DNA of 64,000 nt from a virus (taxonomy: Duplodnaviria > Heunggongvirae > Uroviricota > Caudoviricetes), in IMG/VR virus record IMGVR_UViG_2721755712_000001. One strand, written 5' to 3'. Position 1 is the first letter of the stretch. The number at the start of each line of letters is the position of its first letter. Shown in pieces: positions 4,101 through 62,521 of this stretch. Both the position numbers and the translations under genes were made by a program. The notes below the pieces were generated by a model. It was not told the origin of the DNA. It saw nothing but the letters and a program-made list of their open reading frames with translations, and ran no database searches.

Positions 4101-4711
4101 TCTATTTTCAATGCGCTGGCGACTTTCATCGCCCGGACGTTAATCTGGTCGTAGAATGGGGTAGGGTGCGGATAAACCACACTATAGAAGTTGTCTTTTC
4201 CACCCGCTGTAATCAGTGTGCTTATGATTTTTGCAAAATCGTTGCGTTGGAACACGCTACCGATGTCGGAAGTAAGCAGGATGATGTTGCCTTTGGCATA
4301 TGTAGAAACCAACTGTTCGAGCGAGAGACGCGGTACAAAGTAGAACTGTTCTCGTGTGTTGGCCACCGTCATTAGTTCGCAGATGTCGCGATATCCTTGC
4401 TCATTTTTAATTAGAGCGGTAAACGAGTAGTTACGTCCCCGCTCTAATGATTCCATACATCTCATAGATTCTTTAGCAAGTTTAGCCCGGTGCTCGTATG
4501 TGGGATCATCAACAATGTTTAGTTTCACACCACAAATAACCGCCATGTCGTCACCAGCGGCACGTTGTAGTGGAATAACGCTCGCAATATTCATGCTATC
4601 TGCTGAAATTACAGCGGTGTAGCCAGCTTCTCTGGCAATCTTCACCGCGTTTTCTGCTTTTAGAGCCGACTCCCCAAGTGAGAAGTCAGTTCGAACCATC
4701 AGTGCTTTCAT
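1193..4711 (-). CDS. DNA polymerase III alpha subunit-like replicative polymerase (DnaE family)
   Basis: 1172 aa; contains GPGRGSSAGSLVAWCIGITNVDPIRHGLLFERFINPERLDLPDADLDFS, matching the DnaE palm/catalytic-aspartate region; N-terminal PHP-like region appears degenerate (no His cluster). Confidence 0.9.
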   Translation of the reverse strand: MKALMVRTDFSLGESALKAENAVKIAREAGYTAVISADSMNIASVIPLQRAAGDDMAVICGVKLNIVDDPTYEHRAKLAKESMRCMESLERGRNYSFTALIKNEQGYRDICELMTVANTREQFYFVPRLSLEQLVSTYAKGNIILLTSDIGSVFQRNDFAKIISTLITAGGKDNFYSVVYPHPTPFYDQINVRAMKVASALKIEPVAFYPAYYESIDDADIKDIAHMVTNNIKIDQPHRLRIPHQRDNAVNGRRHLLEALKAFSVRMDVPVTAAMASTTQDTIIDACTWRWHELPPALPKMADDEPATLMKLAVAGLRKRLTTKEFGYTPPASENRVYVERLKYEMDTLTRLGFCGYFLMVRDLMNHSRETGIPVGPGRGSSAGSLVAWCIGITNVDPIRHGLLFERFINPERLDLPDADLDFSQARRHEVIEYLNERYGEDYVAGIPNFTYLGAASALRDTARIYGVESADMAVSKELKNVEDDSLPLEELREQLASLDKYATKYPDAFNAACKLQSLMRGFGRHAAGMIVAGVPLTERTPVERRGDARCIAFDKRYCEAMGLIKLDVLGLATLDLLDSAKRYIKENTGEDINLDAISLEDRKVLDGFAAGYTQGVFQLESGPMRKLLKDLGGGIEPMSFKTVVATTALFRPGPIQSGMLDDYVSVAKGFMTPESLHPVLDELTAETNGVILYQEQTMNATRLLAGFTMAEADAVRSAIGKKNMEKMKSMGEKFIVQAQAGWIDVELEDGTTQRIHRAEHFKCEDGTLKTVEEALEHGAKLPINAVRVTASHPGLSEMKAKEIWTAFEKNGAYQFNKSHSVAYSLISYQSMWLKTHYPAEFFAAALTILGEDKHQGLVKDALTYGIRVLPPDVNVSSNRIEIRTLEDGSQALYAPFSAVKGCSENGCQAIMRAREKVGGKFESVAQFDEAVEKRACNSRVRESLHKVGAFASIEPGSLPATDPERLRDQAELMGNLIIDAVKASRPFEMNPKRSAEINVLMTRMAAEMGLGEELIRPTIGIKPKIMIILDNANGNDARTGYFMENGYDDFKAKLLTVGDLRMGDLYVTGVCKKVKDKEKDYTKDEIGQFTDFMREEINLVRPTYILTCGSRSTALFNNKSKPSDLIGRKEYFPELDATVFYGFNPNILYFRPEEGERLEAILADIAETINK

Positions 4712-8331: not shown

Positions 8332-8429
8332 GGCTAATCCTTTGTTATGAAAACAAATTATTTACTAGTGTGTTTAATGTAGCACTGCGCGAACAGGGAA
8401 CTAAGCCATTCGCGCAGGGAGAAGAGGGG

Positions 8430-8893: not shown

Positions 8894-9280
8894 ATGTCTG
8901 ATAACAAGATTGAATTTATAGAAAGTCGCTACGCTGCTTTTATCGCAGGGTTGATTGAATCCTCACCTATGAGCCAGGCCCAGATAGCCAAAACAATTGG
9001 GTATAAAAACGCCAACAACCTTTCTTTAATTAAAAGCGGCAAAATTCCTTTGCCTATCGATAAGGTTCGTCCGCTGGCGCTGGCACTGGGTATTGAGCCA
9101 AGTCGTCTTATGATGATGGTGCTGGAAGAACGCCAACCCGAACTCGCAGCATTTTTATACAAAGAAGGCACTGCTCCTCTTAACGAGGACGAAAAACAGG
9201 TTCTTGCTGCATATAACGAGCGATTCGGTAAAGAGAAAGGCGCATCACAAAAGGTTGTTGAGGCCATAAAGTCTCTATGA
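8894..9280 (+). CDS. XRE-type helix-turn-helix transcriptional regulator
   Basis: 128 aa; segment SQAQIAKTIGYKNANNLSLIKSGK fits an HTH with flanking hydrophobic core; convergent with the recombinase gene. Confidence 0.55.
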   Translation: MSDNKIEFIESRYAAFIAGLIESSPMSQAQIAKTIGYKNANNLSLIKSGKIPLPIDKVRPLALALGIEPSRLMMMVLEERQPELAAFLYKEGTAPLNEDEKQVLAAYNERFGKEKGASQKVVEAIKSL

Positions 9281-10378
9281 AAAATTTACACGAATAAGCT
9301 CTGTTGATAGACGATCTCCCTTAAATTTGTGGTCAATTTCGTCTAAATCCGGTTGCTCTACGATTGATGCGATGTACGTCGAGAAACTTTCTAAGGCGTC
9401 TCGCATCTCGTCCATATAATCGTGCCGGTCGTAGACCCGATCTATCCCCTCAAGACTGTGGTTCATGATTTTACGTGATACCTCCTGGCTTATGCCTAAT
9501 GCTGGGAAGTAACTACGCGCAGTACGGCGCAAATCTCGGGGTGTAAATGGCTCAAGCTCCATCAGTTCTGGTCGTTCCAGAATACGACGTAATGCCTGGG
9601 CTATTGCCACTTTAGACATAGGAAGGTCTTTCCCGATTTTTTTATTCGAAGGCACGAGCCACTGGCTGTCTTTACCATATTCGAACAACTCTTCAATACA
9701 AGTGCGCATTAATGAGCTTAAAGGCAGAGAATGCTCACGGGCAGATTTGTTCCTCTTGCCTTGATTCCAAACCCCACGCTTAAGATTGAACTCACTTTTT
9801 TTAGCCCGCAGTACTTCGTCAGGTCGTCTTGCGGATACAAGACATAGCCTGGCCGCCCATTTTGTACCAGCACACACATTGAAGTAGTCCCATATATTCC
9901 AGAACACCCATACCTCTGCGTCGGTCAGCTTCCGCTCGCGAGGTGTGGGCTTTGCGCCACCGGCAACTTTGTTAAGTGACATATCGTTTAACGGTGACAC
10001 GTCTATCATCCCCTGGAAGGCGCACCAGCTAAGGAACTGCTTCATCAGAGAGAAAACGCGGCGGCCCATAACAATTTTGCCATCCAGTATTAGTGGGTTG
10101 ACCAGTTGGTTCACCATGAACCTATTAATGTCACTTACTTTTACATCGGCAATGTGCGGCAAAACATGTATCAAAATACAATGAACAGCGATCTCTGGCC
10201 GACGTCTGGTTATCAGCAGAGATAAGCGAGTGAATAACATGAATGCGTCCGAGAATCTCATGTCATTGCTGACCTGGGAGATCATAACGGCCTGCATTTG
10301 AGATGCTCTTTCGAGATACTCTATCGCCTCTTTTGAGGTGTTCTCCGCAGCGCGTGCTCTGTCAAAGCTATTTTTCAT
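9275..10378 (-). CDS. tyrosine recombinase (integrase/resolvase family)
   Basis: 367 aa; C-terminal region with conserved Arg (LRRTARSYF), His (IMNHSL) and a Tyr near RVYDRHDY, in the R-H-R-Y arrangement of tyrosine recombinases. Confidence 0.65.
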   Translation of the reverse strand: MKNSFDRARAAENTSKEAIEYLERASQMQAVMISQVSNDMRFSDAFMLFTRLSLLITRRRPEIAVHCILIHVLPHIADVKVSDINRFMVNQLVNPLILDGKIVMGRRVFSLMKQFLSWCAFQGMIDVSPLNDMSLNKVAGGAKPTPRERKLTDAEVWVFWNIWDYFNVCAGTKWAARLCLVSARRPDEVLRAKKSEFNLKRGVWNQGKRNKSAREHSLPLSSLMRTCIEELFEYGKDSQWLVPSNKKIGKDLPMSKVAIAQALRRILERPELMELEPFTPRDLRRTARSYFPALGISQEVSRKIMNHSLEGIDRVYDRHDYMDEMRDALESFSTYIASIVEQPDLDEIDHKFKGDRLSTELIRVNFS

Positions 10379-20739: not shown

Positions 20740-20782
20740 GTGCTTTCCTTTGTTTTTTAAACAAATTGTTTTCTAGTATTAG

Positions 20783-23071
<2,289 letters not shown>

Positions 23072-23491
23072 CCGTCGTGCAGCTGCGGAAAGAACGGTGG
23101 AGATAAAGTAGTCGTATGAGCAGCAATAGCGGTCAGCAAACTGGCGTGCTTTCCATAGAGACGTTTTATTGGCAGTCGACAACTCCTGATAAGGCAGGCG
23201 TTTTAACCCGGTGGTGAACGGAGCTGTTTCAAAGTGTTCGCGACCGTGCGTCAGCATGATATTTGAGTACTGACGTTTGTATGCCTCCGTAAAAAGACAG
23301 GTGGCCATGAGAGGATGCATGTCGCGGTAATCAAACCACTTCGTCTCGAAGAGTTCAGCCTCATCTTTACAGCGCGACAAACCAATGTTTTCAGCAACCC
23401 ACTTGTCCATAACAGCGGTATTCCACTCTGTCATGAAGTCGTACTGGTTGTTGTCGATGGTATCGAAAAAGATTTGGCTCATGTGGCTCAC
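23072..23491 (-). pseudogene. N-terminal fragment of the phage gene interrupted by the IS element
   Basis: ORF 23015..23491 continues into the IS right end before stopping; first 140 codons are phage-derived. Confidence 0.6.
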
Positions 23492-23764: not shown

Positions 23765-24532
23765 ATGGACGATTTATCGGTATACGCGAGATCATTGGAT
23801 AAGGCTAAATACTATGTTTACTGCCTCTATGATACAGAAGACAAGATGAAAAGACCGTTTTACATAGGAAAAGGCAAATCGACTCGTTGTCTCGATCACA
23901 TCAAGTATCCCGATGACTCTCCCAAATCCATGCGGATCAAAGAACTTTTGGCTAATAAAAAATTAGGCATAGATATTCTTCGTCATGGTATGGATGAAAC
24001 CACAGCCAAACTTGTTGAGGCGACATGCATCGACCTTATGGGGGTCGGAGAGCTTACGAATAAGGTACGAGGAAGTGGTTCCATGATGGGCAGAATATCA
24101 CTGGACGCCTACCATCACTTAGTGCTGCAAGAGGAAACTGAAATTGCTCCTGAGCACGCCGGTCTTGCCTTCCTGCTAAACAGCACCTACAAGTCAGGAA
24201 TGTCCGCTCTGGCATTATATGAAGCTACGCGTGGCGTATGGGCAAAGGTTCCAAGAGACGAGAATCTCAAATATGCCTACGCTACATATGGTGGGCTAAT
24301 AATGGAAGTTTATCAGATTGAATGCTGGGTCAAAGCCGGTTCTCAGCAGTACTTTACAAGGGATATAGCTCTTGGCCCCGACACAAAACGTTATGAATTT
24401 GTTGGCAGAATAGCCGATGAGCATATTAGAAAACTGTATGTAGGCAAATTAATCAAGAAGCCACCAAGCTACGGTAGCCCTTTTGTGAAGGTTGGGGTGG
24501 TTAGGACTGAACATAGTGTTAGCGCGGCATAA
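23765..24532 (+). CDS. GIY-YIG nuclease-domain protein with uncharacterised C-terminal region
   Basis: N-terminal YYVYCLY...PFYIGKGK...R...H matches the GIY-YIG catalytic motif; about 150 C-terminal residues without a recognisable motif. Confidence 0.6.
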   Translation: MDDLSVYARSLDKAKYYVYCLYDTEDKMKRPFYIGKGKSTRCLDHIKYPDDSPKSMRIKELLANKKLGIDILRHGMDETTAKLVEATCIDLMGVGELTNKVRGSGSMMGRISLDAYHHLVLQEETEIAPEHAGLAFLLNSTYKSGMSALALYEATRGVWAKVPRDENLKYAYATYGGLIMEVYQIECWVKAGSQQYFTRDIALGPDTKRYEFVGRIADEHIRKLYVGKLIKKPPSYGSPFVKVGVVRTEHSVSAA

Positions 24533-24547
24533 AGCTGACACTGTAGT

Positions 24548-24580
24548 TATGCATTGGCGCAATGTACGCGCCAATGCATA
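24548..24580. terminator. bidirectional hairpin terminator
   Basis: perfect inverted repeat TATGCATTGGCGC-AATGTA-GCGCCAATGCATA followed by ATTTTTAA, between convergent GIY-YIG and partition genes. Confidence 0.7.
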
Positions 24581-24584
24581 ATTT

Positions 24585-24944
24585 TTAACCTTTCTTCATC
24601 AACTCTCGTTTGATTTCATCGGTACGCATCGTGACATCGGCAGCGGTGATCGCCTCATTCAATTTCACGATGTCCTCGATTTCCTGCGGTGACTTCTCTG
24701 CCAGATGGAAAATGGCTGCTCGAATCACGTCAGAACGAGTGAACTTCTCGAAGCGAGGGATGAACTTCATCATCTCCAGCAGTTCGAAGTATTCGTCCTC
24801 CAGTGACATTGTGCGGCTTTTAATTTTCTCTTTGCCACGAGTCGGGCGTCCCTGTGGTCTGACTGGTTGGCGCAAAGGAGTTGTGTTCTTAGCCGGTGCA
24901 TCAGGCTCTTTGCGCTTTGCTAGGTCACCCATTTTCATGGACAT
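24585..24944 (-). CDS. partition centromere-binding protein, ribbon-helix-helix (ParG-like)
   Basis: 119 aa; basic disordered N-terminus then C-terminal RHH-like segment; stop/start overlap with the parA-like gene. Confidence 0.5.
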   Translation of the reverse strand: MSMKMGDLAKRKEPDAPAKNTTPLRQPVRPQGRPTRGKEKIKSRTMSLEDEYFELLEMMKFIPRFEKFTRSDVIRAAIFHLAEKSPQEIEDIVKLNEAITAADVTMRTDEIKRELMKKG

Positions 24945-25612
24945 TATTCTTCTTCCTCCAGACTCAACAGATAATCTACAAATTCTTCAAACTCGGCTTC
25001 CGCCTTTTTGTCGCGCTCGCTACCGGTCATTTCAAAGATAGAACGACCAGACTCTTCCGCATCATCATAGACGTTGCGGTTATATAGATTGACTGGCGCA
25101 GACTCGATTCCAAACGTCTCAACAATCTCTTTAGCCGCCAGAATGCGAGACACTTGTGATGGCAAAGCCGGGCACTGGTTCATGACCGCGCGGACCTTCA
25201 CTTTATCGTTTACATTGCGAACATTGTCGATAATAGGATCGATGTCACGTAAAGATTTCAAATCACGACGCTTAGGACGCAGCGGGATAATGATAACGTC
25301 AGCCATCAGCATCGCTTGTCGCTGAATTTCGGAGTCGAAGCCACCAGCATCTACCACTACAAACTCAGCTCTACCCTGAAGCGATTTTAGGTGCTTAATG
25401 ATGTCATCCTGAACGTATGCAAAAGGAATCAGCTCAAGGTCTTCGTTCTGTCGACGGTCTTCACACCAGCTCGTTGTCGTGCGCTGAATATCTATATCGG
25501 TAATATAAACCTTCTTCTTCTTTTTGACTTTCAGGCAAACGGCAATTTGCTGGGCAACGGTGGATTTGCCAGGCCCGCCCTTTGTGCCGCCAACCACAAA
25601 GATCTTGGTCAT
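24944..25612 (-). CDS. parA: ParA-family partition ATPase (small, type Ib-like)
   Basis: 222 aa; deviant Walker A GGTKGGPGKST near the N-terminus. Confidence 0.8.
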   Translation of the reverse strand: MTKIFVVGGTKGGPGKSTVAQQIAVCLKVKKKKKVYITDIDIQRTTTSWCEDRRQNEDLELIPFAYVQDDIIKHLKSLQGRAEFVVVDAGGFDSEIQRQAMLMADVIIIPLRPKRRDLKSLRDIDPIIDNVRNVNDKVKVRAVMNQCPALPSQVSRILAAKEIVETFGIESAPVNLYNRNVYDDAEESGRSIFEMTGSERDKKAEAEFEEFVDYLLSLEEEE

Positions 25613-25930
25613 TGGAGAGTTCCCTTTGCGTATATAATTATCGTCTGAAACAACTTGTTTTCTTATATGTGATATAGCCTAAATGCCTACGGCTGCGGTG
25701 TAAAGGTTAAATGGTAGGTTGTGATTAACAATTGGCAATCATAGCTTGTATTTGTCTGTTGAAAAAAGTAACAATGACCTCTATATTACAAGTACGGTGA
25801 TATGCCGTACACAATTTGATAATGCACACGTAATGGGCTATAGCCTTTTAAAGTAATTTTTGAGTCGAAAACTCAGTTTGAACAGAGGAGATTGATGGCC
25901 TTCCTACATCACGGCCATCAGGAGGAATAC

Positions 25931-26200
25931 ATGTCAGCACTAAAAAAGCAGCGCATCGATTTGAGATTAACCGATGACGATAAAAGCATCATCGAGGAAG
26001 CTGCCGCAATGTCTAACCAGAGCATTACTCAGTTTATGGTTAGCAGTGCATCTGAACGTGCCGTGAAAGTTATAGAGCAACACCGTAGACTAGTTCTGAA
26101 TGAAGAATCCTGGAATCTGGTTATGGACGCTATAAGCAATCCTCCGGCACCGAACGACAAGCTGAAACGAGCTGCTGATCGTCTGAAAAGCATGGAGTAG
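25931..26200 (+). CDS. antitoxin, RHH/DUF1778-like (TacA-like)
   Basis: small protein immediately upstream of and coupled to a GNAT gene; start placed at internal Met MSALKKQRIDLRL; the track ORF begins at 25892. Confidence 0.6.
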   Translation: MSALKKQRIDLRLTDDDKSIIEEAAAMSNQSITQFMVSSASERAVKVIEQHRRLVLNEESWNLVMDAISNPPAPNDKLKRAADRLKSME

Positions 26201-26207
26201 TTTACTC

Positions 26208-26729
26208 GTGAGCAATACAACGATAGAGATTTTCTCTGGAGAGAAAGATTATGATCTAAACGGTTTTGATTGCGGCGAAGAGTCACTAAACGCCTTTTTA
26301 GCCAACCACTTAAAAAGGCAGCATGAGGGAAAAATTCTTCGTGCTTATGTGCTTTGCACTCAAGAAGAAAGGCCAAAAGTGTTAGGATATTACACTTTGT
26401 CAGGTAGTTGTTTTGAAAAGGAGTCCTTACCTTCAAGAAGCAAACAAAAGAAGGTTCCTTATCGGAATGTTCCAAGTGTCACTTTGGGTAGGCTGGCTTT
26501 GGACAAGTCCCTTCAAGGTCAAGGATTTGGCTCAATGCTTGTAACACATGCAATGCGCGTTGTGTACAATGCATCTCTTGCTGTAGGCATTCATGGGCTT
26601 TTCGTTGAGGCGTTAAATGACAAAGCCAAGGCGTTTTATAAAAGTTTAGGCTTTATCCAGCTGGTTGGTAACAACGAGCGTTCTTTGTTCTATCCTACAA
26701 AATCTATCGAAAAATTGTTCGAAGAATAA
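26208..26729 (+). CDS. GNAT-family acetyltransferase toxin (TacT-like)
   Basis: 173 aa; acetyl-CoA binding motif QGQGFGSMLV; 8 bp after the antitoxin gene. Confidence 0.65.
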   Translation: MSNTTIEIFSGEKDYDLNGFDCGEESLNAFLANHLKRQHEGKILRAYVLCTQEERPKVLGYYTLSGSCFEKESLPSRSKQKKVPYRNVPSVTLGRLALDKSLQGQGFGSMLVTHAMRVVYNASLAVGIHGLFVEALNDKAKAFYKSLGFIQLVGNNERSLFYPTKSIEKLFEE

Positions 26730-54787: not shown

Positions 54788-54904
54788 AGATCCCTCTAAA
54801 ACACACAGAGCGCGTCCATGCGCTCTAAAACAACTTGTTTACTGAATCTGCTAACCAACTTGTTTTCTGGGGTGTTTAATTAGGTCTGGGCATGTCTTAT
54901 TAAG

Positions 54905-54959
54905 CCTGCTTCCGTATATATTTAATAAGTTACTTATTATTTATATATACAGAAGCAGG
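54905..54959. repeat. 55-bp near-palindromic element, copy 2
   Basis: identical to 23598..23652; about 120 bp upstream of the small terminase start. Confidence 0.9.
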
Positions 54960-54983
54960 TCTTTAAATAAGCTCCCAGACCGA

Positions 54984-55259: not shown

Positions 55260-56150
55260 TTATGCCGGTAAAGCAATTTCTAACGGTTTATCCAAAGGTT
55301 GTTTGTCGAATGCCAGCAGTGGCAGCGTGTCAGGCAGCCGACGACCAAAGTCAGGGTTTCGGTACACACCATACAACGGAGACGTAAAGCTCAGGTTGTG
55401 AATGTCCTTGAGCAGCTTCACAATGCTGGCCTCGTCCACCAGACTGTCGGCAATGTCCTGAATCGTCGTGCCACGATTCCGCCCAGCTTTTGCCAGGGAA
55501 CTGTTCTTGTGGTAGTCCGCTACCAGATCACGCAGTGCACGGCGACGACGAGACTCGCTCATTGCGAACAACTCTTTGACGATCGCCTCGTTATCACCCG
55601 GGTCGGAACGGAAATGGCGCTGGAATACACGCAGTGCACTTTCATAGCTCTTCGGTCGCTCAGGGCGGATGAACTTAAACCCTGCTTTCATGGCGAAGGG
55701 ATTGTATTTGCTCATCGAGGACTGGATCTCAATGATTGGCCGGTCATGCATCCTGCTAACCAGGTTAATCATTCGATAAGAGACGCCTACGCCACGATAC
55801 TGAGTATCCACAACTGAGCGACTGATCACCGCAAAGTTGTTATTCACGTACCGACCCCAGTACTGGTTAGCCACGGTGGTATTAGTGGTTGGTTTCAACT
55901 TAGGAAACATGCGGTGGCGAGGTGCCAACAGTAGTTTCGGGTAAGCCATAACCACGACGCCCACCAGACGGTCATCAAGTTCGCAGCGATAGTAAGTTGG
56001 CGCGAAAGGTTTGCCGTCTGTTTTGTAGTGAAGCGACTTAAGAGCGTGCCAGTCCTCTACAGTTCCCTTTGTGACAGTCATTCGCTCCAGAAAGTCCAGA
56101 TGACGCGGAAACTCTTCAGGGCGGTAGCGTTTAATGATGATGTCCGTCAT
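55260..56150 (-). CDS. hypothetical protein with GNAT-like acetyltransferase motif
   Basis: 296 aa; VVDTQYRGVGVSYRMINLV (Q/R-x-x-G-x-G) and NPFAMKAGFKFI resemble GNAT motifs A and B; about 130 extra C-terminal residues. Confidence 0.35.
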   Translation of the reverse strand: MTDIIIKRYRPEEFPRHLDFLERMTVTKGTVEDWHALKSLHYKTDGKPFAPTYYRCELDDRLVGVVVMAYPKLLLAPRHRMFPKLKPTTNTTVANQYWGRYVNNNFAVISRSVVDTQYRGVGVSYRMINLVSRMHDRPIIEIQSSMSKYNPFAMKAGFKFIRPERPKSYESALRVFQRHFRSDPGDNEAIVKELFAMSESRRRRALRDLVADYHKNSSLAKAGRNRGTTIQDIADSLVDEASIVKLLKDIHNLSFTSPLYGVYRNPDFGRRLPDTLPLLAFDKQPLDKPLEIALPA

Positions 56151-56812
56151 AAATGAACCTCATCATGACTACCATTGTGATATTCCACCTTCACGCGTTC
56201 TTTGTAGTGCTTGGTGATCTGCATATCCGGGCGCAGCGCGTTCTTCAGGTCTTCGTGAGTCGTCGCCACCATTACCGTCGCACCAACCTTTCGAGCGGCA
56301 CGCTGGAGGTTAGATGCCACAACCTGAGCGGTTACACGGTCTAGAACAGCCCCGAACTCGTCAGCAGCCCACACTTTAGCGCCTGACTCAATCAGTTTGG
56401 CAATCTTGAGACGATATTTCTGGCCGTCTGACATTTCAGAAGGCTTGCGAACAAACAGATATGCATCGTTCAGACCAGCCATAGATAACAACCCAAGCGC
56501 ATCACTGGTCGTTTTGCCCAACTGATCGATGACGTTAACCTCATTATCGAAGGTAAAATCATCGATGGAGGCTACAGACAGCCCTTCATCCTTCATCTGT
56601 CGTTGCAACTCGCGCAGCACAACGGATTTGCCGGATCCGGATTGGCCGGTGATGTACACCACATCGCCCTGCTTCACTTCCAGCTCCAGATTGTCGTAAA
56701 GCGTCCACTCTTTTTCGTCCAGGCCAAGCCCGAACGACTCAGCGATTTCCAACGTGCGCGTGGTTTTATTTACGCGTGTCTGAAACGATACGTTGATGAT
56801 GTATTTGCTCAT
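56147..56812 (-). CDS. small ABC-type P-loop ATPase
   Basis: 221 aa; Walker A GQSGSGKS, signature-like LSDGQKYRLKIAKL, Walker B KVWAADEF, H-loop-like ATTHED. Confidence 0.6.
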   Translation of the reverse strand: MSKYIINVSFQTRVNKTTRTLEIAESFGLGLDEKEWTLYDNLELEVKQGDVVYITGQSGSGKSVVLRELQRQMKDEGLSVASIDDFTFDNEVNVIDQLGKTTSDALGLLSMAGLNDAYLFVRKPSEMSDGQKYRLKIAKLIESGAKVWAADEFGAVLDRVTAQVVASNLQRAARKVGATVMVATTHEDLKNALRPDMQITKHYKERVKVEYHNGSHDEVHL

Positions 56813-57510
56813 GCAGCCATCTCCCCGGAAGAGATCTTCTCCGCATATGCCACAAATGCGTCTACCCCGCTTTCTCCTGTCATTTCTTCCATGTGGGCAA
56901 GCAAATCACCAACAACAATGGCAGAGCCAGCAGGGAGCGTTTTAAAGCCCAATACGTCGACAACACGTACTTCTTCCGCTGCAACTTCACGACTGATCTC
57001 GGTGTGTTCATCCTTCTGTCGTTTAGTTTCTTCGCCAAGATCGATAACTAGCGAGTCGGTGTCCATTTCTTCTGTCATACTGCCAACGAGAACATTCAAC
57101 TCACGCTCTTCAAAGCCGAAAACCTCGATATCGTCCAGAACAAGCGACTCAAGCTCTTTCTGTAGCTTAATTGCATCGTAATCAATGCTGGCTAGTCGGT
57201 TATCTTCAAGGCGCTTCGCACGAACCTCGTCATCACTGAGATCATCGCGAACAATAACCGGTACGCGCTCAAGTCCAGCAAAAATTGCAGCCTCACGGCG
57301 GCCGTGGCCAGTAATAATTACGTCGTTCTTATCGACCGTAATTGGCTGGTCAAATCCGCGCTTTTTAATGGCTGCGGCCAGATCTCGGATCTGCTGTTCA
57401 TCATGCTTTTTGGCATTCATCTCATAGGGAATAAGATCTGCCGGGTCGCGATATACGATTTCAAACTTTTTGGTCATTACATACGCTCCTTGTAGTAGTC
57501 GACCAGCCAC
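56809..57510 (-). CDS. ParB/Srx-like nuclease-domain protein
   Basis: 233 aa; ParB-type motif IITGHGRREAA; acidic C-terminal half. Confidence 0.55.
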   Translation of the reverse strand: MAGRLLQGAYVMTKKFEIVYRDPADLIPYEMNAKKHDEQQIRDLAAAIKKRGFDQPITVDKNDVIITGHGRREAAIFAGLERVPVIVRDDLSDDEVRAKRLEDNRLASIDYDAIKLQKELESLVLDDIEVFGFEERELNVLVGSMTEEMDTDSLVIDLGEETKRQKDEHTEISREVAAEEVRVVDVLGFKTLPAGSAIVVGDLLAHMEEMTGESGVDAFVAYAEKISSGEMAA

Positions 57511-58175
57511 ACCAGAGCCTCACCAGCGTTCTCCATTTCATTACCGGTGTTAATAGCCTGCTCTTTGATGATGTTTTTTATGGTTTCTGCAACGCGATCT
57601 GACGCATCGAAGGTTACTTTGAAGCGCATGGTCTGATGTTCCGCACCGACACGTTCGGTTTTCTCTCGTTTGTCGGTATCGACAGGCTCGTCACCGCCAC
57701 GAGACAACGCCTCCAGTGCTTCAAGGTCGATTGCAGCCTCTTTTGCTAAAACCATCGAGATTTCGTCGTCATACGGGGCGATTTCAGACAGTTGATAGTC
57801 AAGTTCTGACTGAATTTCTTCAATGAAGCGTTGCAATGCGATTTGGTCGTCTTCACCGTATCGCTCGTTGTCCACCAGTGACATCTGTTTAGCTACGACA
57901 TCGCTAATTTTGCCCACAGAAAGCACCGGAACCGTTGAAATTCCTTGCTCAATAGCAGCACGCCAGCGATGTTCGCCGCCGAGGATTTCAAAAAATCCAT
58001 CTTCAAGTTCACGAGCCAAAATTGGCTTAAAAAAGCCCAATTTTTCGATAGAACCTTTCAGTTTTTCAAAATTCTGCGCACCAACCGAATTGGTGTTCCA
58101 GGTATTCGGGCGAAGGTTGGCAACATCAACCTGCAAAATCGTGATTTTTACATCCATTTTATTGCTACAATCCAC
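57477..58175 (-). CDS. ParB/Srx-like nuclease-domain protein
   Basis: 232 aa; canonical ParB box motif ILGGEHRWRAA. Confidence 0.65.
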   Translation of the reverse strand: MDCSNKMDVKITILQVDVANLRPNTWNTNSVGAQNFEKLKGSIEKLGFFKPILARELEDGFFEILGGEHRWRAAIEQGISTVPVLSVGKISDVVAKQMSLVDNERYGEDDQIALQRFIEEIQSELDYQLSEIAPYDDEISMVLAKEAAIDLEALEALSRGGDEPVDTDKREKTERVGAEHQTMRFKVTFDASDRVAETIKNIIKEQAINTGNEMENAGEALVWLVDYYKERM

Positions 58176-61999: not shown

Positions 62000-62521
62000 A
62001 TGGTTAAAGACATCACCTACGGCATACCGGCTGAAGTCTGGCCGCGAGACTACGAACATGCTGAAAACATACTTATGTTCTGGCGGAAGAACAACATTCC
62101 TGTAAGAGTCACGCTTGAAGACGGTCAGGTGTTTTGCATGTACGTTCAGGGGACAATGCCTTCCCGCAATAAGCTAGATTTATGCCCGCTTCCATATGAT
62201 AAAGAAAATCGTATAAGACTCCCACTTGAGCGCATTAGCACAATTGAATCAGGTGTAATCGATGGCATTGCTCGCGAGTTCAAAGGTAGGCTAACAATAC
62301 ATCCAGACTATGTTGACAATCAGCCATCACGCCGTGACTTTTTTGCGATATGTCGCAAGGCTTATCAAAACGACCAATCTATAAGGGTCTACATGACAGA
62401 CGGTCGTGAAATAGAAGGGGTGTCAAGAGGCGTTGATGCTTGCCAGGTCACTCTTAAGTTAGAAGACGGCAGAAAAATACTTGTTTTCTTCGATTGGGTT
62501 GAACGAATCCTTCCATTTTAA
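62000..62521 (+). CDS. hypothetical protein with internal tandem duplication
   Basis: 173 aa; two similar halves (VRVTLEDGQVFCMYV and VTLKLEDGRKILVFF); followed by a terminator. Confidence 0.45.
   Translation: MVKDITYGIPAEVWPRDYEHAENILMFWRKNNIPVRVTLEDGQVFCMYVQGTMPSRNKLDLCPLPYDKENRIRLPLERISTIESGVIDGIAREFKGRLTIHPDYVDNQPSRRDFFAICRKAYQNDQSIRVYMTDGREIEGVSRGVDACQVTLKLEDGRKILVFFDWVERILPF

What the first reader, a model, noticed from the sequence alone, without database searches (positions are those of the whole stretch)
24585..26729. Plasmid-style maintenance block (ParA plus RHH partner; GNAT toxin with RHH/DUF1778-like antitoxin) inside a phage genome
A small ParA with a ribbon-helix-helix partner, followed by a GNAT acetyltransferase preceded by a small antitoxin-like ORF (the arrangement of TacAT-type modules whose toxins acetylate charged tRNA), indicates the element is maintained extrachromosomally as a phage-plasmid. 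The interval 25613..25890 carries short inverted repeats (for example GTACGGTGATATGCCGTAC) that could be the centromere or operators.
Basis: partly seen in the sequence, partly recalled or inferred. Interest (0 to 1): 0.5.

Follow-up and report, generated by a model that had tools for sequence, protein, structure and literature searches.

The report
Phage-plasmid partition genes plus toxin-antitoxin
This stretch carries the plasmid-keeping genes of a known SSU5-type phage-plasmid of E. coli: a ParA partition ATPase with its small partner, and next to it an AtaRT/KacAT-type toxin-antitoxin pair. It is correctly read but ordinary and already annotated in near-identical published genomes.

Summary
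Window 24585-26729 holds, on the minus strand, a 222-aa ParA overlapping by one base a 119-aa partner gene. Divergently, on the plus strand, it holds an 89-aa DUF1778/TacA antitoxin and a 173-aa GNAT toxin.

The window is an SSU5-like phage-plasmid. This region is 98.9-99.9% identical to pLF82 (phage Cyrano) and to phage CMS-2020a. It occurs in 263 of 5426 complete E. coli genomes, always on plasmids and never on a chromosome.

The toxin-antitoxin pair belongs to the AtaRT/KacAT clade. The toxin is 70% identical to AtaT and the antitoxin 80% identical to KacA. The catalytic Tyr144 and the acetyl-CoA-site Gly108 are kept.

It has the half-sites and spacing of the crystallised KacAT operator, sits on the predicted transcription start, and occurs only in loci that carry the cassette.

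The partner's ribbon-helix-helix fold is only weakly indicated. Its link to ParA rests on conserved gene order. No centromere was found.

The parA leader is unusually conserved and contains one copy of a 13-bp palindrome found 18 times across pLF82. This is already known biology and of low interest.

The parts
24585..24944 (-). 119-aa ParA partner (candidate centromere-binding/adaptor protein). It has a conserved N-terminal MGDLAK(R/K) peptide, a basic disordered stretch, then a helical core.
   Evidence: ORF; its start overlaps the parA stop by one base. The family is narrow: 25 clusters and 19 representatives among 1.84 billion proteins. It is always encoded directly after a ~221-229-aa ParA in distant relatives. 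PHROG 5111, function unknown. AF2 gives residues 1-47 disordered and helices at 48-59, 70-82, 86-97 and 101-118. RHH is hinted only below threshold.
24944..25612 (-). ParA-family partition ATPase, 222 aa, with no N-terminal DNA-binding domain (type Ib-like). Deviant Walker A KGGPGKST at residues 11-18.
   Evidence: Pfam MipZ, AAA_31, CbiA, ParA. NCBIfam ParA_partition E=1.9e-33, 115.7 bits, below the equivalog cut-off of 180. Closest solved structures are ParF of TP228 (4dzz) and the chain deposited as 'ParA' (5u1g), both E=1.2e-10. Sequence.
25613..25722 (-). Conserved parA leader. Predicted promoter: -35 TTTACA at 25704-25699, 17-nt spacer, -10 TAGGCT at 25681-25676. 13-bp palindrome AAACAAGTTGTTT at 25660-25648. 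Shine-Dalgarno region near 25618-25626.
   Evidence: Present in all 8 SSU5-like elements compared. Positions 25645-25722 are 90-96% identical where parA itself is 78-84% identical. The promoter register is shared with other copies of the palindrome on pLF82. The promoter assignment is inference.
25759..25787 (+). Predicted sigma-70 promoter of the toxin-antitoxin operon (TTGAAA-17-TATATT)
   Evidence: Best promoter-like site in the region, 10 of 12 matches. Equivalent TTGAAA...TATAGT sequences precede the operator in L006 and L007.
25792..25810 (.). Toxin-antitoxin operator: palindrome GTACGG-N7-CCGTAC across the predicted transcription start
   Evidence: Same half-sites and 7-bp spacer as the crystallised KacAT operator AAATGTACGGTTATTAACCGTACATGA (PMC6698736). 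Unique in the window. Found only in the 4 of 16 loci that carry the DUF1778-GNAT cassette. The KacA base-reading residues R8, D10 and R12 are conserved in the antitoxin.
25931..26200 (+). DUF1778/TacA-family ribbon-helix-helix antitoxin, 89 aa (AtaR/KacA clade)
   Evidence: PF08681 E=5.7e-26. KacA (5zgn_A) E=6.6e-42 and AtaR (6ajm_C) E=1.3e-40. 80.5% identical to KacA and 76.1% to AtaR.
26208..26729 (+). GNAT acetyltransferase toxin, 173 aa (AtaT/KacT clade), GTG start 7 nt after the antitoxin stop
   Evidence: AtaT (6gts, 6ajm) E about 1e-79 and KacT (5zgn_C) E=3.9e-75. 69.8% identical to AtaT without gaps. Of 15 AtaT residues shown to matter, 12 are identical (including Y144 and G108), 2 are conservative changes and 1 is changed, R40 to E (residues from PMC7595197).
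26733..26754 (.). GC-rich hairpin between the toxin stop and the Rz/Rz1 lysis genes (terminator-like)
   Evidence: Terminator-like site. Function inferred.
24547..24581 (.). Perfect 14-bp inverted repeat followed by a T-run, between the convergent GIY-YIG gene and the partner gene (terminator-like)
   Evidence: Inverted repeat I1; sequence. It is not conserved in relatives, whose matches begin at about 24585, so it is unlikely to be the centromere.

Best explanation
The block is the plasmid-maintenance region of an SSU5-like phage-plasmid. It has two independent parts.

**1. Conserved parA-partner operon**
- It is read leftward from a strongly conserved leader.
- ParA is a small Walker-type ATPase of the type Ib kind.
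- The translationally coupled 119-aa protein is most likely its adaptor. Its helical core, probably RHH-like, would bind plasmid DNA. Its conserved basic N-terminal peptide would stimulate the ParA ATPase. Together they would move plasmid copies apart over the nucleoid before division.

**2. Accessory AtaRT/KacAT-type toxin-antitoxin cassette**
- It is read rightward and sits in the variable slot between parA and the lysis genes.
- The toxin would acetylate the amino group of charged tRNAs and stop translation.
- The antitoxin would wrap the toxin and, as an antitoxin4-toxin2 complex, repress its own promoter at the GTACGG-N7-CCGTAC operator.
- Cells that lose the element would be inhibited as the antitoxin decays.

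**Shown versus inferred**
- Shown here: gene identities, homology, operator identity, conserved gene order, exclusively plasmid location.
- Inferred: DNA binding and ATPase stimulation by the partner, the position of the centromere, toxicity, and post-segregational killing.
For: **Element identity and episomal state**
- 99.8% identity to phage CMS-2020a and 98.9% to Cyrano.
- 736 plasmid records match, 702 of them non-mobilizable.
- Both ends of the window are collinear with E. coli plasmids of about 107-114 kb, including pLF82. pLF82 has repA and an IncFIB replicon.
- 263 of 5426 E. coli genomes hold the region, at 265 places, none chromosomal.
- Cyrano has 5.5 copies per cell and produces virions. 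Its toxin, antitoxin and partner genes are expressed in the lysogen at 35, 60 and 9 times background (PMC9928086).

**ParA and partner**
- ParA family matches.
- The partner gene follows parA in 5 of 5 distant relatives.
- The N-terminal G-x-L-x-K motif and the SRTxS...RSDV core are conserved.
- Sub-threshold RHH hits: 15 of 19 family members hit aCcr1 and 2 of 19 hit RHH_1. aCcr1 is an RHH protein (PMC9976878).
- The leader is more conserved than the genes.

**Toxin-antitoxin pair**
- Homology and key residues.
- Operator.
- A GNAT-type toxin-antitoxin pair, GmvAT, promotes vertical transmission of the Shigella plasmid pINV (PMC6519299).
Against: - No centromere was identified. The parA leader has no iterated repeat array, and no tandem array was found in the window near par.
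- The toxin-antitoxin cassette is dispensable for the element. SSU5, PhiR41_1, pHCM2 and pJN2-26 lack it, as do about 114 of the 263 E. coli genomes with the par genes. It cannot therefore be the main maintenance device.
- Neither toxicity nor plasmid stabilisation has been measured for this allele.
Confidence: 0.85

Rival explanations
1. The 119-aa protein is a RelE/ParE-type toxin, as annotated for CYRAN_29 in phage Cyrano, and not a ParA partner.
For: Only the product name in OV696614.1 and the listing in PMC9928086.
Against: - No Pfam hit of any kind, RelE/ParE included, even at E<=10, and no PDB sequence hit.
- The predicted structure is a disordered basic N-terminus plus helices, not an alpha/beta RelE fold.
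- The gene is translationally coupled to parA, and this gene order is conserved in 5 of 5 distant relatives.
Confidence: 0.03
2. The toxin-antitoxin cassette serves mainly as something other than addiction. It could be anti-phage abortive infection, competition between related phage-plasmids, or anti-addiction against chromosomal AtaRT/KacAT homologues. It would then contribute little to vertical stability.
For: - The cassette is accessory and sits in a hot spot that holds different cargo in different lineages, with divergent DUF1778-GNAT alleles in Enterobacter and Citrobacter elements.
- A candidate defence gene (PD-T4-3-like GIY-YIG) lies on the other side of par.
- With about 5.5 copies per cell plus a par system, stability may already be high.
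- Cross-neutralisation between chromosomal and plasmid GNAT-RHH pairs has been reported (PMC9431474).
Against: - No PADLOC defence model matches either protein.
- A GNAT-type toxin-antitoxin pair is documented to promote plasmid inheritance (PMC6519299).
- The pair lies next to par on a replicon that is always a plasmid.
Confidence: 0.25
3. The ParA-like ATPase positions something other than the plasmid. It could act like MipZ or MinD in modulating cell division, as some records annotate it, or have a role in the lytic cycle.
For: The best Pfam hit by E-value is MipZ, 7.3e-14. Some RefSeq records name it 'division plane positioning ATPase MipZ'.
Against: - The MipZ match covers only the N-terminal nucleotide-binding half.
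- The best NCBIfam family is ParA_partition, 1.9e-33.
- The closest solved relatives are the plasmid partition ATPases ParF (TP228) and the chain deposited as 'ParA' (5u1g).
- It is paired with a small basic partner, as in type Ib systems, and sits beside the replication genes on an obligately plasmid replicon.
Confidence: 0.05

Closest known systems
AtaR-AtaT (E. coli O157:H7) and KacA-KacT (Klebsiella pneumoniae), DUF1778/RHH antitoxin with GNAT toxin
   Same: - Antitoxin-then-toxin gene order with a 7-nt gap.
- Toxin 69.8% identical to AtaT, with Y144, G108 and most tRNA-contacting residues kept. Antitoxin 80.5% identical to KacA and 76.1% to AtaR, with the DNA-reading residues R8, D10 and R12 kept.
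- Operator with the same GTACGG/CCGTAC half-sites and 7-bp spacer over the transcription start.
   Different: - It is carried on a phage-plasmid next to par. The O157 ataRT locus gave no megablast match.
- AtaT R40 is Glu here. KacA Q70 and R77 are Asn and Lys here.
- tRNA specificity and toxicity are untested for this allele.
TacA-TacT (Salmonella) and ItaRT, more distant GNAT toxin-antitoxin pairs
   Same: Same Pfam families and the same overall logic of acetylating charged tRNA.
   Different: Much more distant. TacT-like chains score E of 1e-20 to 1e-11, against 1e-79 for AtaT. 'TacAT-type' is correct at family level, but the clade is AtaRT/KacAT.
ParF-ParG of plasmid TP228 (type Ib partition, RHH adaptor with a flexible N-terminal tail)
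   Same: - A small ParA without a DNA-binding domain; ParF is the closest solved structure.
- A small partner encoded immediately downstream, with a disordered basic N-terminus followed by a folded core.
   Different: - ParA is only distantly related to ParF (E=1.2e-10).
- The partner shows no detectable similarity to ParG (hhalign probability 0.4%). It is longer, 119 aa against 76, with two extra C-terminal helices and a longer loop between the two core helices.
- No ParG-style repeat array was recognised upstream of parA.
par and toxin-antitoxin genes of phage-plasmid Cyrano (pLF82) and other SSU5-like elements
   Same: Same locus at 98.9% nucleotide identity, already annotated as ParA, KacT toxin and putative antitoxin. 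Published as a phage-plasmid.
   Different: In this window a PD-T4-3-like GIY-YIG gene lies beyond the partner gene, where Cyrano has a different gene (CYRAN_30 in the phage record, a DUF2971 protein in the plasmid record). An IS21-family insertion lies nearby.
GmvAT of the Shigella pINV plasmid
   Same: A GNAT-type toxin-antitoxin pair on a low-copy plasmid that promotes vertical transmission (PMC6519299).
   Different: Not compared by sequence here. Cited only as functional precedent.

Membership tests
DUF1778/TacA-GNAT type II toxin-antitoxin (AtaRT/KacAT clade) | Antitoxin belongs to the TacA1/DUF1778 family | tested here: met
   PF08681 E=5.7e-26, 90.7 bits against a cut-off of 21. KacA E=6.6e-42, AtaR E=1.3e-40.
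DUF1778/TacA-GNAT type II toxin-antitoxin (AtaRT/KacAT clade) | GNAT toxin with the catalytic Tyr and the acetyl-CoA-site Gly | tested here: met
   Y144 and G108 are conserved in an ungapped alignment with AtaT. Their roles come from PMC7595197.
DUF1778/TacA-GNAT type II toxin-antitoxin (AtaRT/KacAT clade) | Bicistronic antitoxin-then-toxin operon | tested here: met
   Antitoxin 25931-26200 and toxin 26208-26729, same strand, 7-nt gap.
DUF1778/TacA-GNAT type II toxin-antitoxin (AtaRT/KacAT clade) | Palindromic operator over the promoter, read by the antitoxin RHH strand | tested here: met
   GTACGG-N7-CCGTAC lies 4 nt after the predicted -10. It has the same half-sites and spacing as the KacAT operator, and R8, D10 and R12 are conserved. 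Binding itself was not tested.
DUF1778/TacA-GNAT type II toxin-antitoxin (AtaRT/KacAT clade) | Toxin inhibits growth by acetylating aminoacyl-tRNA and the antitoxin neutralises it | not testable with these tools
   Inferred from 70-80% identity to characterised proteins. No experiment exists on this allele.
Type Ib plasmid partition system (ParA + small adaptor + centromere) | Small Walker-type ParA with a deviant Walker A and no N-terminal HTH | tested here: met
   222 aa, K11GGPGKST18. ParA_partition E=1.9e-33, below the equivalog cut-off. ParF is the closest solved structure.
Type Ib plasmid partition system (ParA + small adaptor + centromere) | Small partner gene immediately downstream in the same operon | tested here: met
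   One-base overlap of stop and start. Gene order conserved in 5 of 5 distant relatives.
Type Ib plasmid partition system (ParA + small adaptor + centromere) | Partner is a ribbon-helix-helix DNA-binding dimer | tested here: inconclusive
Type Ib plasmid partition system (ParA + small adaptor + centromere) | Cis-acting centromere of repeated partner-binding sites next to the operon | tested here: not met
   No iterated array was recognised in the leader or downstream. Only a conserved promoter region and a single 13-bp palindrome are present, and that palindrome is genome-wide rather than par-specific.
Type Ib plasmid partition system (ParA + small adaptor + centromere) | Confers segregational stability | not testable with these tools
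   Needs a plasmid stability assay.
SSU5-like phage-plasmids | Phage structural and lysis genes together with plasmid replication and partition genes on an extrachromosomal replicon | tested here: met
   literature.
RelE/ParE toxins (database name of the 119-aa protein in Cyrano) | RelE/ParE fold or family signature | tested here: not met
   No Pfam or PDB similarity. The model is helical and disordered.

The most novel reading that the evidence does not exclude
The 119-aa ParA partner may found a new, lineage-restricted family of partition adaptors that does more than partition. It could bind the 13-bp palindrome AAACAAnTTGTTT. That palindrome sits just downstream of sigma-70-like promoters at 18 sites on pLF82, in front of parA, the helicase operon, nrdB, many small early genes and the gene upstream of the large terminase. 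The partner would then act like KorB of RK2, omega of pSM19035 or SopB of N15: dispersed centromere-operators would couple plasmid segregation to control of phage genes. The evidence does not exclude this. The simpler alternatives are that the palindrome is the operator of the element's lysogeny repressor, or part of a reusable promoter cassette.
Probability: 0.1. Interest if true: 0.6.

Novelty: already known. Interest (0 to 1): 0.2.

Why it matters
SSU5-like phage-plasmids are common in clinical Enterobacteriaceae. This par region occurs in about 5% of complete E. coli genomes, and such elements can carry resistance genes. Knowing what keeps them in the cell is therefore useful.

The gene content found here is already annotated in published near-identical genomes, and the toxin-antitoxin family is structurally and biochemically characterised. 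The finding adds nothing new at that level.

The open points are narrower:
- The ParA partner belongs to a small uncharacterised family.
- It is mis-named as a RelE/ParE toxin in the Cyrano phage record.
- The centromere of this very widespread par system is unknown.
- The parA leader shares a regulatory palindrome with many other operons of the element.

Tried and rejected
**Tests of the RHH fold of the partner**
- Pfam at E<=10 gave nothing.
- phmmer and a profile search of the PDB gave nothing.
- hhalign against ParG gave a probability of 0.4%.
- Only scanning every family member turned up recurrent sub-threshold RHH hits.

**Centromere hunt**
- Repeat searches and a k-mer comparison found no par-specific array.
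- The k-mer comparison instead revealed the genome-wide palindrome.
- In parA leaders of distant relatives, the palindrome is present in L011 and, as a variant, in L014. It is absent in L012, L013 and L016, although the partner's SRTxS strand is kept in L012 and L013. This argues weakly against the partner binding it.
- The 14-bp inverted repeat below the partner gene is not conserved and looks like a terminator.

**Rejected readings**
- The GTACGG palindrome as centromere.
- The RelE/ParE annotation of the partner.
- A defence-system assignment for the toxin-antitoxin pair: PADLOC found no hit.
- Chromosomal integration, despite a tyrosine recombinase gene at 9275-10378.
Full report
**1. What is there**

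The interval holds four genes in two divergent pairs.
- On the minus strand, a 222-aa ORF (24944-25612) is followed by a 119-aa ORF (24585-24944). The start of the second shares one base with the stop codon of the first.
- On the plus strand, an 89-aa ORF (ATG at 25931, ending 26200) is followed 7 nt later by a 173-aa ORF (GTG at 26208, ending 26729). The ORF list extends the first to a TTG at 25892. The ATG is preceded by AGGAGG and matches the start of the homologues KacA and AtaR.
- A 318-nt intergenic region separates the two pairs.
The quoted palindrome lies at 25792-25810.

**2. What element this is**

The region is 99.8% identical to Escherichia phage CMS-2020a and 98.9% to phage Cyrano. 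Its par half is 80-87% identical to Salmonella phage SSU5 and to Klebsiella SSU5-like elements.

Cyrano is the plasmid pLF82. The two records have the same length, 108,379 bp. pLF82 is a circular IncFIB non-mobilizable plasmid with repA, dnaE, helicase and primase genes. It also carries a full siphovirus structural and lysis module.

Both ends of the window align at 98-99% to E. coli plasmids of about 107-114 kb.

In the plasmid collection 736 records match, and 702 of them are non-mobilizable. Among 5426 complete E. coli genomes, 263 hold the region at 265 places. All are on plasmids and none is on a chromosome.

The literature describes Cyrano as an SSU5-like phage-plasmid with about 5.5 copies per cell. 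It produces virions and is induced by genotoxic stress. In the lysogen its KacT-like toxin, its antitoxin and the 119-aa gene are expressed at 35, 60 and 9 times the local background (PMC9928086).

**3. The toxin-antitoxin pair**

Family and clade:
- The antitoxin is a clear TacA1/DUF1778 member (PF08681, E=5.7e-26).
- It is 80.5% identical to KacA and 76.1% to AtaR.
- The toxin is a GNAT. It matches AtaT chains at E about 1e-79 and KacT at 4e-75, but TacT-like chains only at 1e-20 or worse. It aligns to AtaT without gaps at 69.8% identity.

Functional residues:
- Fifteen AtaT residues affect toxicity when mutated (PMC7595197).
- Twelve are identical here, including the catalytic Y144 and the acetyl-CoA-site G108.
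- Two are conservative changes (R71K, K77R). One is changed (R40E).

AtaT acetylates several charged tRNAs (Gly, Trp, Tyr, Phe and initiator Met) and blocks translation. The same activity is inferred here but not shown.

**4. The palindrome is the toxin-antitoxin operator**

- The best sigma-70-like site in the region is TTGAAA-17-TATATT at 25759-25787 on the plus strand. The palindrome begins 4 nt after the -10, so it spans the expected transcription start.
- The KacAT complex was crystallised on AAATGTACGGTTATTAACCGTACATGA, a palindrome that spans the kacAT start site. KacA R8, D10 and R12 read the bases (PMC6698736).
- The window has AGTACGGTGATATGCCGTACA, with identical GTACGG/CCGTAC half-sites and the same 7-bp spacer. 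The antitoxin keeps R8, D10 and R12.
- The pattern is unique in the window, against 0.04 expected.
- Among the 16 loci fetched, it occurs only in the four that carry a DUF1778-GNAT cassette: Cyrano, pLF82, and an Enterobacter and a Citrobacter plasmid. In the last two the toxin is only 62% identical and the flanks are unrelated.
- It is absent from SSU5, PhiR41_1, pHCM2 and pJN2-26, which have parA and the partner but no toxin-antitoxin pair.
- The palindrome therefore travels with the cassette and not with par.

**5. The toxin-antitoxin pair is cargo**

Homology with relatives that lack the cassette stops at about 25719-25722. The slot between parA and the Rz/Rz1-endolysin-holin genes holds different genes in different lineages:
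- two minus-strand genes in SSU5 and in PhiR41_1
- one plus-strand gene in pHCM2 and in pJN2-26
- divergent DUF1778-GNAT alleles in the Enterobacter and Citrobacter elements

In E. coli, 149 of the 263 genomes with the region cover at least 80% of it, which means they carry this cassette. The pair is an accessory module placed beside par and not part of the core maintenance machinery.

A plasmid-addiction role is the most likely function. The precedent is the GNAT-type pair GmvAT on Shigella pINV (PMC6519299). A role in defence or in competition between elements cannot be excluded. PADLOC has no model matching either protein.

**6. ParA**

- The protein has the deviant Walker A motif KGGPGKST at residues 11-18 and no N-terminal DNA-binding domain.
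- Its best curated family is ParA_partition (E=1.9e-33, below the equivalog cut-off).
- Its closest solved relatives are ParF of TP228 and the chain deposited as 'ParA' in 5u1g (both E=1.2e-10).
- The MipZ name in some records reflects a match to the nucleotide-binding half only.

**7. The 119-aa partner**

The family is narrow. It has 25 clusters in the 5.8-billion-protein collection and 19 representatives among 1.84 billion. It has no Pfam family and only a PHROG of unknown function.

In five distant relatives whose contigs could be read, the gene always follows a ParA gene of 221-229 aa directly. This is the strongest evidence that the two proteins work together.

Conserved features:
- an N-terminal G-x-L-x-K(R/K) peptide
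- a basic stretch
- a core of the form I-K-S-R-T-x-S-[LMI]-E-[DE]-E-[YF]...[FL]-[TS]-R-S-D-V-x-R-A-A

AlphaFold models the first 47 residues as disordered. It then places four helices in the full-length protein, and two confident helices preceded by an extended segment in the core-only model.

On the RHH fold:
- By eye the core resembles an RHH strand-helix-helix with a loop about five residues longer than in CopG or ParG.
- Formal tests were mostly negative.
- The only positive signals are below threshold: 15 of 19 family members hit the RHH family aCcr1 (best E=4.9e-5, 23 bits against a cut-off of 60), 2 hit Pfam RHH_1 (best 0.0053), and 1 hits ParD. aCcr1 is an RHH protein (PMC9976878).
- I rate an RHH-like fold as more likely than not, at about 0.6, but unproven.

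The RelE/ParE toxin name given to this gene in the Cyrano record has no support.

The proposal that the N-terminal basic peptide stimulates ParA rests on established knowledge of ParG, Spo0J and SopB. It was not tested here.

**8. The parA leader and the missing centromere**

The 110 nt upstream of parA are shared by all eight SSU5-like elements compared. Positions 25645-25722 are 90-96% identical in elements whose parA is 78-84% identical. This non-coding stretch is therefore under stronger constraint than the genes.

Read on the minus strand, it contains:
- TTTACA (25704-25699), a 17-nt spacer and TAGGCT (25681-25676)
- then, 15 nt later, the palindrome AAACAAGTTGTTT (25660-25648)
- then the ribosome-binding region

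No iterated repeat array of the kind that forms type Ib centromeres was found here, downstream of the operon, or elsewhere in the window.

The palindrome is not specific to par:
- With at most one mismatch it occurs 18 times on pLF82, against 0.4 expected. The window holds five copies: 8351, 20759, 25648, 54828 and 54853.
- Sixteen of the 18 copies lie 12-66 nt upstream of the start codon of an annotated minus-strand gene. The copies at 75481 and 76972 are further from any annotated start.
- Most copies lie about 15 nt downstream of a GATAAT-like -10.
- The genes include parA, the DnaB-like helicase, nrdB, many small genes, and the gene that precedes the large terminase.

It therefore looks like a shared operator or leader element of many promoters. 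What binds it is unknown.

Among parA leaders of more distant relatives, it is present in L011 and, as a variant, in L014. It is absent in L012, L013 and L016, although the partner's putative DNA-reading strand is kept in L012 and L013. This argues weakly against the partner as its binder.

The centromere of this widespread par system remains unidentified.

**9. Verdict**

The content is already annotated in published near-identical genomes, and the toxin-antitoxin family is well characterised. Novelty and interest are therefore low.

Corrections and remaining points:
- The example palindrome is the toxin-antitoxin operator.
- The RHH nature of the ParA partner is unproven.
- The toxin-antitoxin pair is accessory cargo.
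- The centromere is not in evidence.
- The residual interest lies in the uncharacterised partner family and in the genome-wide palindrome.

Noticed in passing
window 8351-8363, 20759-20771, 25648-25660, 54828-54840, 54853-54865; pLF82 (L008-L010), 18 sites: The 13-bp palindrome AAACAAnTTGTTT (often extended to AAGAAAACAAnTTGTTT) recurs 18 times on pLF82, against 0.4 expected. Sixteen of the 18 copies lie 12-66 nt upstream of an annotated minus-strand gene start, and most follow a GATAAT-like -10. It looks like a regulon-wide operator or a reusable promoter cassette. Its binder is unknown.
   Followed up: partly
window 23765-24532 (+): A 255-aa GIY-YIG protein directly beyond the partner gene matches the PADLOC candidate anti-phage defence protein PD-T4-3 (E=1.3e-23). 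It is present in PhiR41_1, but Cyrano and SSU5 have other genes there.
   Followed up: partly
window 21204-23005: An IS21-family insertion. Its second ORF (22223-23005, 260 aa) reads as an IstB-type ATPase, judged by eye from the translation and not scanned. The insertion appears to split a gene whose halves are 20783-21151 and 23015-23491; the second half matches phrog_2500 and the gene corresponds to CYRAN_31.
   Followed up: no
window 56147-58175 (-): Two adjacent ParB N-terminal-domain proteins (PF02195, E=1.5e-8 and 3.4e-13) next to an ABC-type ATPase. They lie in the packaging-proximal region, far from parA. Whether they relate to partition is unknown.
   Followed up: no
window 62000-62521 (+): A 173-aa protein with a strong match to the FljA 'repressor of phase-1 flagellin' family (PF03614, E=1e-80). 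It may let the phage-plasmid modulate host flagellin expression.
   Followed up: no
window 8894-10378: A tyrosine recombinase (9275-10378, Phage_integrase E=2.9e-10) next to a small weakly HTH-like regulator. Since the element is never chromosomal in 263 E. coli genomes, this is more likely a dimer-resolution enzyme than an integrase.
   Followed up: partly
window about 54883-54981: A long imperfect AT-rich inverted repeat (arms CCTGCTTCCGTATATA and TATATACAGAAGCAGG, with outer GGTCTGGG and CCCAGACC). It lies in the intergenic region upstream of the gene that precedes the large terminase. It could be a packaging site, an origin or a terminator. Seen by eye.
   Followed up: no
L006 about 4250-4300 and L007 about 4240-4340: In the Enterobacter and Citrobacter elements, the toxin-antitoxin leader between operator and antitoxin start contains tandem heptamer arrays (AAAACTG)n of differing copy number.
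   Followed up: no
window 25896-25923: An 8-bp-stem inverted repeat (TGATGGCC...GGCCATCA) ends immediately before the antitoxin's Shine-Dalgarno sequence. It may be a translational or stability element in the toxin-antitoxin leader.
   Followed up: no
L001 4999-5358 (OV696614.1, CYRAN_29): The public annotation of the ParA partner as 'RelE/ParE putative toxin' appears to be wrong. RefSeq records call it a hypothetical protein and start it two codons later.
   Followed up: yes
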